Part shown: in pieces, positions 25,651 through 27,407 of the stretch
Numbering within the stretch: position 1 is the stretch's first letter
How the letters are laid out: every line of letters starts with the position of its first letter
Source of the DNA: Squalus acanthias
Taxonomy: Eukaryota
NCBI GenBank assembly: GCA_030390025.1
Contig: CM059427.1
Span: 22,630,001-22,694,000 of the forward strand
DNA: 64,000 nt
Reading direction: 5' to 3'
Program-made: the position numbers and the translations under genes
The notes under the pieces: model-generated
The model's input: only the letters and a program-made list of their open reading frames with translations
The model's database searches: none
Told to the model about the DNA's origin: nothing

Positions 25651-25740
25651 TCACAGTCCGGGACAACTTGGATTTACCGGTTGCTGTACACGAAGAAGCT
25701 TTTTCTCTTTCTGTCGCTGGTTTTGGAACCATATTTTTAC
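25651..25740 (-). CDS. HOXD14: HoxD14 exon 3 (homeodomain helix 3 and C-terminus)
   Basis: Not in the ORF track. Acceptor cttttcag|GTA; VKIWFQNQRQKEKKLLRVQQPVNPSCPGL*; WFQNQR is the PG14 signature. Confidence 0.93.
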   Translation of the reverse strand, partial: VKIWFQNQRQKEKKLLRVQQPVNPSCPGL

Positions 25741-25909
25741 CTGAAAAGTAGACAGATAATTTTAAAACAGAAGATGGCTAATATAAAGTGACTCGGTTTA
25801 AGGTCCTGTGGGACTAAATGCGCCGACCTGTTGACAATTAAGACAGATAGCATTGCCAGGCAGGTATTTCACTTTCTGTTATGTAAAAGCGGGAAGGCGG
25901 TTCTCTTAC

Positions 25910-26091
25910 CTGTCTTTCTGTTAAGCCTAACTTGAACGAAATGTTTAATCGGACTTCAGGAGTGAGGAATCGATTCTTTTCAAAAGCCTTTTCCAGTTCG
26001 GCGATTTGCTGTTTGCTGTAAGGAATTCTTTTTTTTCTTTGCCTGTGTACTGGGTTCTGCGCCGTTGACCATTGCGATGTAAAGCCCAGTG
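25910..26091 (-). CDS. HOXD14: HoxD14 exon 2 (homeodomain residues up to Q44)
   Basis: Acceptor tttcctcag|CA; (A)[60 protein letters not shown]; phase-0 donor CAG|GTAAGA. Confidence 0.94.
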
Positions 26092-26878
26092 CTGAGGAAA
26101 CACACATATCCATCAATATGTTGAGTCACCTCGGCCAAAATAGTTGAAATTCACGCCAACATGTATTTTACCTACACATAACGGCTTCTTGTATATACAA
26201 ACCACTGTTAACTAAACAGCCGAGACTGTCGTTGAACGTCACTTATTTTAATTCATATGAGTTAATTATCTTCAAAAAATTAACAGAGCAGAGTTACGAG
26301 AATTAATATCAAACATATTCATATTTATTTATACATTTGGGTTCTCATGTTCCGCCCCCTTGTTTATTTGAATCCATAAGGCACTTTATCCAAAGTAAAT
26401 GATTTTCAGTTGAAGTGGGTATGCTTCTTGTTTTGTTATTTTTGTATATTTTGTGTACAAAGTGCATATGTTGATTTGATCTCTGAAACGTTTCAGTGAA
26501 AAATAGATACGAAGCAATTGAATGAAAACGAACTAACATTGATAGATCACTTTCTTTAGGTAAATTATTCGTGTTGAATCGACCTCGTACGAATTGTAAC
26601 CTTCTTTAAGAAAAGAGAACTATCTTAGCTCTGCTAAAGTTTGGTGGACATGTTTTTCTAAAATTATATGTAAAAATTAAATGCCCTATAATTTACAGTC
26701 AAGGTAAAATAAACACAGTCGAAAACGAAATACAAATCACCTGGGTGTTGCTATCAGACACAGAAATACTAAGCTTGCCTTTTGAACACATATTAAAAAC
26801 CTTATCGCAACCCCTAACCGTGTTACCTAACACCGAACGACAGGTATAAAATATATTTGAATATATGATCAGACCAAC

Positions 26879-27407
26879 CTAAATGCCTTGAGACACTGGG
26901 CATTGCAGTGTTGAATGTTCCTCCTGAAAAGGGTGCTCCGTAATACTGCGAATGGCTAAAGGCAGACATGCCCAGATTGTTGGGATCTGTCTGGGTCTGG
27001 ACAGGTGCAGCCCGGGGATATTCTAAAGGCCAATGCTGATAAATTGAAGAGCTTGTAGAGTATTCACCTCTGGTGCAGGGGTTGTGCCGGTAGCTACTAA
27101 ACGAAGATATATGACTGTCACTTTGAAGCTGGTTTGCAGGGAATCGACCTGCCTCAGGTGACACAGCAACTATCTCCCGATCTGCACTTCCATGCGATCC
27201 ACAAGTCGAAATGTCTTCGGAGTACAAACCGTGGCACGTTCCACTTGCTGTCGTTTTCAAAGGCGATGGGGACATAGCAGAAGAAATTCCAAAGTTACTG
27301 GAAAGTACTGGTATCATTTCCATAGGCCGCACTCCATTTTGCAGTATTCCTGTTTTATCGCTAGATGTCTCTAACGTCAGTTTGTGCTGCAGCGAACTCG
27401 AATCCAT
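26879..27407 (-). CDS. HOXD14: HoxD14 exon 1
   Basis: ORF MDSSSLQHKL...YQHWPLEY...MPSVSRHL; the phase-1 donor G|GTTGGT joins exon 2 in frame; 266 aa total. Confidence 0.85.

What the first reader, a model, noticed from the sequence alone, without database searches (positions are those of the whole stretch)
25651..27407. Intact HoxD14 with a homeobox split by a 169-nt intron
Seen: three phase-consistent exons (26879-27407, 25910-26091, 25651-25740) encode 266 aa with helix 3 reading VKIWFQNQRQK (Q52 and Q54 in place of R52 and M/V54). The intron falls between homeodomain codons 44 and 45, and the ORF track misses exon 3. Known: paralogy group 14 survives only in a few lineages (chondrichthyans, coelacanth/lungfish, cyclostomes) and is reported not to follow the collinear Hox code. 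This is the rarest gene in the window, but not a new family.
Basis: partly seen in the sequence, partly recalled or inferred. Interest (0 to 1): 0.7.

Follow-up and report, generated by a model that had tools for sequence, protein, structure and literature searches.

The report
Intact shark HoxD14 body-plan gene
This is an intact three-exon copy of HoxD14, a body-patterning gene that most land vertebrates and modern bony fish have lost but sharks and rays keep; it likely switches genes on or off around the embryo's cloaca, and it is an ordinary, already described kind of gene.

Summary
Confirmed and ordinary. Three exons on the minus strand (26879-27407, 25910-26091, 25651-25740) with GT-AG introns of 787 and 169 nt give a stop-free 266-aa protein; intron 2 lies between homeodomain codons 44 and 45. 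It aligns without gaps to horn shark HoxD14 (84.6%) and sawshark (92.1%), sits between HoxD13 and an Evx-type gene, and groups with PG14 (100/97); grouping with PG13 is rejected (AU p=0.003). Three exons, split homeobox and WFQNQR are the published PG14 hallmarks. Q52 and Q54 are family-wide, 32 of 32 relatives with helix 3, not special to this copy. No RNA reads across the junctions were available for this species. Still open: what the invariant Q54, a DNA-contact position, does to DNA recognition; I found no measurement in the open library. The scan earlier noted the dead HoxA14 paralogue in other genomes; this genome has one too.

The parts
26879..27407 (-). HoxD14 coding exon 1 (ATG at 27407; codons 1-176 plus 1 nt); predicted disordered N-terminal region
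   Evidence: 15 homologues at 59-91% identity, E 1e-100 to 1e-56; no Pfam family; pLDDT mostly under 50 in the model of orthologue P0002
26092..26878 (-). Intron 1, 787 nt, GT-AG, phase 1
   Evidence: splice dinucleotides unchanged among the listed differences of a relative's DNA
25910..26091 (-). Coding exon 2: upstream Trp motif and homeodomain residues 1-44
26069..26071 (-). Trp codon 10 residues before the homeodomain; candidate PBX-contact (hexapeptide-like) residue, function inferred
   Evidence: Trp at -10 in 17 of 22 PG14 proteins, -13 in 2, absent in 3; PG13 has its nearest Trp mostly at -18 to -21
25741..25909 (-). Intron 2, 169 nt, GT-AG, phase 0, between homeodomain codons 44 and 45
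25651..25740 (-). Coding exon 3: recognition helix (WFQNQRQK; I47, Q50, N51, Q52, R53, Q54), C-terminal tail and TGA
25195..25200 (-). First AATAAA downstream of the stop; possible polyadenylation signal, untested
   Evidence: pattern match only
16416..17697 (-). Neighbour: HoxD13 (context, about 8 kb from the HoxD14 stop)
   Evidence: exon 1 98% to Cetorhinus Hox-D13; homeobox
31670..34348 (+). Neighbour: Evx-type homeobox gene on the opposite strand, 4.3 kb from the HoxD14 ATG; the name Evx2 is from recalled sequence features and published gene order, not from a database search
   Evidence: gene order Evx2-HoxD14-HoxD13 in horn shark (PMC3509897)

Best explanation
This is the intact HoxD14 gene at the 5' end of a shark HoxD cluster, with three exons and a homeobox split between codons 44 and 45; it likely encodes a working sequence-specific transcription factor active mainly around the embryonic cloaca. 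Shown: gene structure, open frame, PG14 membership, position, conservation. Inferred: both introns are spliced out; the homeodomain folds into the usual three helices and binds AT-rich Abd-B-type sites through R5, I47, Q50, N51 and R53. Predicted: Q54, replacing the Val that contacts 5-methylcytosine in HOXB13, shifts the preferred base at that end of the site and weakens the preference for methylated DNA; Q52 removes a helix-3 salt bridge (R52-E56 in HOXB13). Expression in the cloacal region, possibly also posterior fin bud, is carried over from other species, likely driven by the 5' HoxD cloacal regulatory landscape.
For: Frame and splice sites. Gap-free identity: 245/266 to P0001, 235/266 to P0002, 225/266 to horn shark HoxD14 P0003, against 29-34% to three PG13 proteins. 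Tree of 49 homeodomains: PG14 clade 100/97, inside the chondrichthyan-sturgeon group, apart from HoxA14 (95/93); AU test rejects window+PG13, p=0.00335. Purifying selection: relative X2 differs at 12 of 801 coding and 46 of 1400 non-coding sites (Fisher p=0.012), with 0 coding and 5 non-coding indels; both homeodomain changes are synonymous. Spliced transcripts in relatives (inference): unnamed Logan proteins P0008 (264 aa, 1550-nt contig) and P0150 (272 aa, 1272-nt contig) run through both junctions, whereas other Logan calls such as P0006 read into the intron. Model of P0002 (same 60-residue homeodomain): helices 203-215, 221-231, 235-259 at pLDDT over 90; best fold match HOXB13-DNA, rmsd 1.4 over 59 columns. 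Val269/Ile262 contact 5mC and Arg267-Glu271 salt bridge in HOXB13 (PMC13426251 passages); mapping to HD 54/47/52/56 is my alignment. Cloacal expression in shark and lamprey (PMC3534614, PMC8423624 passages citing Kuraku 2008).
Against: No transcript of this species was seen across either junction; the mechanism beyond gene identity rests on other species and on analogy. Amino-acid constraint outside the homeodomain is moderate: X2 6 synonymous and 6 non-synonymous changes, X5 5 and 5 in exon 1 (pN/pS about 0.3 by my arithmetic on few changes). In HOXB13 helix-3 peptide mimics, Val269 to Thr or Phe did not change methyl sensitivity and the Val peptide itself showed none, so the Q54 prediction is soft. 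The gene was lost or pseudogenised many times, so its role may be largely redundant with Hox13. The tree has 69 columns and a long-branch warning; the D14 versus A14 split rests on 92/86 support plus synteny.
Confidence: 0.88

Rival explanations
1. The gene is a diverged or duplicated Hox13 (PG13) rather than PG14.
For: Best solved-structure matches among Hox proteins are HOXB13 and HOXA13, and one RefSeq name for the horn shark orthologue is 'Hox-B13a-like'. No PG14 entry appeared among those PDB hits.
Against: AU test p=0.00335; PG14 100/97; lacks PF12284, carried by nearly all PG13 hits; R52 in 94 of 94 and V54 in 93 of 94 PG13-search hits with a full homeodomain; a separate intact HoxD13 lies 8 kb away.
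Confidence: 0.01
2. The frame is intact but the gene is a silent or passively transcribed relic on its way to loss, like bowfin hoxd14, which is transcribed yet broken.
For: Repeated losses of PG14; bowfin hoxd14 is an expressed pseudogene; the HoxA14 paralogue in this genome is dead.
Against: Open frame and near-constant length in 13 named shark, ray and chimaera species; homeodomain identical to Heptranchias over 60 residues; coding sites more conserved than flanks and no coding indels.
Confidence: 0.05
3. HoxD14 is functional but acts as a plain Hox13-like factor: Q52 and Q54 do not change its DNA motif, and it is redundant with HoxD13/HoxA13 at the cloaca and posterior fin.
For: R5, I47, Q50, N51, R53 are shared with PG9-13; collinear, nested expression with other 5' HoxD genes in paddlefish fin buds; loss tolerated in teleosts and most tetrapods; tolerance of substitutions at Val269 in peptides.
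Against: Q52 and Q54 are invariant from hagfish to lungfish (32 of 32) while none of 94 PG13-search hits has either; that helix-3 position is reported to be associated with base preference across homeodomains (PMC10862739, one passage, their position 53, which I take as canonical 54).
Confidence: 0.4

Closest known systems
HoxD14 of horn shark (Heterodontus francisci, ACY39976.1, P0003) and catshark (Scyliorhinus canicula, CBL59356.1, P0146)
   Same: 266 aa with no gaps against P0003 (84.6%), 75.9% to P0146; same helix 3, same place between Evx2 and HoxD13, same three-exon plan.
   Different: Only ordinary species divergence (41 of 266 residues from horn shark; 4 of 60 in the homeodomain). The closest entries are sawshark P0001 (92.1%) and sevengill P0002 (88.3%), both misnamed by their sources.
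HoxA14 of coelacanth and lungfishes (P0017, P0018, P0019); cyclostome Hox14 (P0155, P0021); sturgeon and paddlefish HoxD14 (P0016, P0023)
   Same: PG14 clade, WFQNQRQKEK invariant.
   Different: Paralogues or distant orthologues, 41-58% identity over aligned residues; different cluster for A14.
PG13 proteins (HOXD13, HOXB13, HOXA13)
   Same: Abd-B class homeodomain, same fold (rmsd 1.4 to 5eea), same I47/Q50/N51; cloacal expression.
   Different: R52/V54 instead of Q52/Q54, unsplit homeobox in this genome, N-terminal PF12284 domain present, upstream Trp at -18 to -21 instead of -10.

Membership tests
Vertebrate Hox paralogy group 14 | Three coding exons | tested here: met
   defining per PMC3509897 passage
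Vertebrate Hox paralogy group 14 | Homeobox split by a second intron at the conserved position | tested here: met
   Between HD 44 and 45; same position in this genome's HoxA14 relic and where P0023 and P0147 read through; hallmark per PMC3707753 and PMC8423624 passages
Vertebrate Hox paralogy group 14 | Helix-3 motif WFQNQR instead of WFQNRR | tested here: met
   diagnostic per PMC3509897
Vertebrate Hox paralogy group 14 | Homeodomain groups with PG14, not PG13 | tested here: met
   100/97 support; AU p=0.00335
HoxD14 orthologue (versus A14/B14) | Lies between HoxD13 and Evx2 in the HoxD cluster | tested here: met
   Neighbour 98% to Hox-D13; Evx-type gene opposite strand (name recalled); the A cluster on another contig carries its own Hox14 relic
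Vertebrate Hox paralogy group 14 | Spliced transcript in cloaca/hindgut | tested here: inconclusive
   No run on record as RNA holds the locus; spliced forms inferred for relatives only
Vertebrate Hox paralogy group 14 | Sequence-specific DNA binding by the Q52/Q54 homeodomain | not testable with these tools
   Only a predicted fold
Hox paralogy group 13 | R52/V54 helix 3, HoxA13_N domain (PF12284), PG13 clade | tested here: not met

The most novel reading that the evidence does not exclude
PG14 is a Hox class with its own DNA-reading rule: the invariant Gln at homeodomain position 54 (Val in PG13, Met in PG9-12) replaces the hydrophobic contact to 5-methylcytosine, so Hox14 picks a different flanking base and ignores or avoids the methylated sites that Hox13 prefers, giving it a separate target set at the cloaca. 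The gene itself is not new; the untested biochemistry would be.
Probability: 0.3. Interest if true: 0.5.

Novelty: new member of a known kind. Interest (0 to 1): 0.18.

Why it matters
As a finding it adds one more species to a well-sampled gene (15 chondrichthyan hits). It has two small uses. First, annotation: automatic names hide this gene (only 4 of 22 hits show a '14' name as displayed; others read hhex-like, Hox-C8-like, php-3-like) and two database entries run into intron 2 and lose the recognition helix (P0023, P0147). Second, it supplies a clean template to test what Q54 does, a question I did not find answered in the open library, which bears on why a whole Hox paralogy group could be lost repeatedly.

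Tried and rejected
RNA evidence: no RNA holder listed; of three runs guessed to be RNA, X1 gave one 153-nt contig inside exon 1 (27028-27179, crossing no junction) and X8 and X9 gave none; this says nothing for or against expression. No joints were reported. First homeobox motif scan had a faulty pattern and printed nothing; redone. HoxB14 relic: none detected by tblastn or local DNA alignment in 20 kb around and 5' of HoxB13 (L003, L004; the one raised score, 69.5, is probably the HoxB13 homeobox itself); it may lie further away or be too decayed. The upstream Trp as a PG14 peculiarity: rejected as unique, since PG13 has one further upstream. The R52-E17 salt bridge is recalled only; the search found no homeodomain paper for it, and 'Gln54' with homeodomain terms gave 0 papers. 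Q52 in LMX1A and NANOG is recalled; those chains were hit but their residues were not displayed. Primary papers (Powers and Amemiya 2004, Kuraku 2008, Ravi 2009, Feiner 2011) were not read; two were asked for and are not held. The wide profile search of representatives did not run, so distribution beyond the hits is from papers. No complex prediction was run: Hox-PBX binding needs DNA and would resemble solved structures.

Full report
Observation. On the minus strand 26879-27407, 25910-26091 and 25651-25740 give 801 nt, a 266-aa protein and a TGA; both introns (787 and 169 nt) start GT and end AG after a pyrimidine tract. The homeodomain is residues 194-253, and intron 2 falls between its codons 44 and 45; helix 3 reads WFQNQRQK, with Gln at 52 and 54. 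Pfam's homeodomain profile breaks at the same place, 1-43 on exon 2 and 44-57 on exon 3. Among the GT/AG pairs nearby, only these give canonical homeodomain spacing and the register of the orthologues. An in-frame TAG five codons before the ATG excludes a longer N-terminus.

Identity. Exon 1 alone found 15 proteins among 49 candidates, 13 named as sharks, rays or chimaera and 2 unnamed that cluster with such species. The homeodomain region of the best hit found 22 among 27 candidates, adding sturgeon, paddlefish, coelacanth, lungfishes, lamprey and hagfishes. The spliced protein aligns without gaps to sawshark P0001 (245/266), sevengill P0002 (235/266) and horn shark HoxD14 P0003 (225/266); three PG13 proteins give 29-34%. 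The nearest hits suggest a squalomorph shark (inference). A tree of 49 homeodomain rows (window, 22 PG14-search proteins, 13 of the 120 listed PG13-search proteins chosen to cover A/B/C/D, 13 posterior homeodomains of the own genome) puts it in PG14 at 100/97, with the other chondrichthyan and sturgeon sequences (92/86) and apart from coelacanth-lungfish A14 (95/93). The alignment is short (69 columns) and the tool warns that long branches meet, but forcing the window protein into PG13 is rejected (AU p=0.00335). The neighbours fit: HoxD13 8 kb on one side (98% to basking shark Hox-D13), two further posterior Hox genes beyond it, and an Evx-type gene on the other strand 4.3 kb upstream (names D12, D11 and Evx2 from position and recall). 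This is the order published for horn shark (PMC3509897 passages). The own-genome search found one intact PG14 exon 2 among 15 matches, plus a broken copy next to HoxA13.

Is it alive? A relative's DNA (run X2) differs at 12 of 801 coding and 46 of 1400 non-coding sites (Fisher p=0.012); all 5 indels are non-coding; none of the 47 listed differences touches a splice dinucleotide (some differences were not listed); the two changes within the homeodomain are synonymous. Outside it constraint is moderate (6 synonymous, 6 non-synonymous for X2; 5 and 5 for X5 in exon 1). No RNA of this species bridged a junction, which is a blank, not evidence. Two unnamed Logan proteins of relatives (P0008, P0150) span both junctions on contigs of 1550 and 1272 nt, while other Logan calls read into introns, so they likely come from spliced transcripts (inference).

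How it likely works. The model of orthologue P0002, whose homeodomain is identical, shows three confident helices and a low-confidence N-terminal 190 residues; its best fold match is HOXB13 on DNA. R5, I47, Q50, N51 and R53 are kept, and I47, Q50 and N51 are the base-reading residues in Antp (PMC11832328 passages), so an AT-rich Abd-B-type site is expected. Q52 and Q54 are not peculiar to this copy: 32 of 35 PG14-search proteins carry WFQNQRQ and the other 3 stop before helix 3; among 94 PG13-search hits with a full homeodomain, 94 have R52 and 93 V54. In HOXB13 the matching Val269 contacts 5-methylcytosine and Arg267 forms a salt bridge with Glu271 (PMC13426251 passages; numbering mapped by me). 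I therefore predict a changed preference at that end of the site, less preference for methylated DNA, and a slightly less stable helix 3. Against this, Val-to-Thr or -Phe made no difference in that paper's peptide mimics. A Trp sits 10 residues before the homeodomain in 17 of 22 aligned PG14 proteins; a conserved Trp is the core of the PBX-binding hexapeptide (PMC9136108 passages), so a PBX contact is possible but untested. For expression, shark Hox14 is reported around the cloaca and lamprey Hox14 in posterior endoderm (PMC3534614 passage), bowfin hoxd14 in vent, tail bud and fin bud (PMC8423624), and paddlefish HoxD14 nested collinearly in fin buds (PMC4778128); lungfish hoxa14 is the exception to high posterior Hox expression in fins (PMC7875771 legend). 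The 5' HoxD landscape is argued to be ancestrally cloacal (PMC12675288 passages), which would suit a gene at this end of the cluster (inference).

What is known. Three exons and WFQNQR are given as diagnostic for all PG14 genes (PMC3509897), and the second intron position is shared with lamprey Hox13beta, some amphioxus genes and fly Abd-B (PMC3707753). HoxD14 is published for horn shark, catshark, elephant shark, paddlefish and sterlet; HoxA14 for coelacanth and lungfishes (PMC3038165) and, more recently, caecilians (PMC11600591, a lead from an earlier scan note). All papers were seen as search passages only; no supplements were read, and the primary Hox14 papers were not available, so they could hold binding or misexpression data that I did not see. 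I found no measurement of Hox14 DNA specificity: none of the 25 listed papers (of 722) contained 'hox14', and no title or abstract start listed dealt with it.

Verdict. Real, correctly described, and an expected orthologue of a known gene: new member of a known kind, interest 0.18. The only part with room for surprise is the untested effect of Q54, which belongs to the family, not to this window.

Noticed in passing
G000:C4:68920243-68922916 (L001:9243-9596 and L002), minus strand, about 8 kb 5' of HoxA13: HoxA14 pseudogene: exon 2 with an in-frame TGA and a frameshift, donor site kept at the 44/45 position, exon 3 acceptor and helix-3 motif decayed, faint exon 1 match. Known kind of relic (PMC3707753 for elephant shark); PMC2746220 (one passage) judged HoxA14 absent as a gene in skate and horn shark.
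   Followed up: partly
G000:C1741:11673-11930 (L005), plus strand, 22.8-kb contig: An open PG12-type homeobox (99/95 with the window's HoxD12, long branch) outside the A, B and D clusters, likely a HoxC12 remnant of the degenerate elasmobranch HoxC cluster; PMC3707753 still described HoxC as lost in elasmobranchs.
   Followed up: partly
Database proteins P0023 (paddlefish HOXD14) and P0147 (little skate): Both entries run into intron 2 and lack the recognition helix; most other Hox14 entries carry wrong automatic names.
   Followed up: partly
window 47272-57255: Several ORFs that look like reverse-transcriptase fragments of LINE retrotransposons (recalled resemblance), all beyond the Evx gene; none among the listed ORFs inside the Hox cluster.
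   Followed up: no
window 1225-2598 and 9310-10854, minus strand: Open posterior Hox genes of PG11 and PG12 type (HoxD11, HoxD12 by position) with unsplit homeoboxes.
   Followed up: partly
L003 and L004 (G000:C13:4271500-4291500): No HoxB14 relic detected around and 5' of HoxB13 in this stretch, although one is reported in elephant shark.
   Followed up: partly
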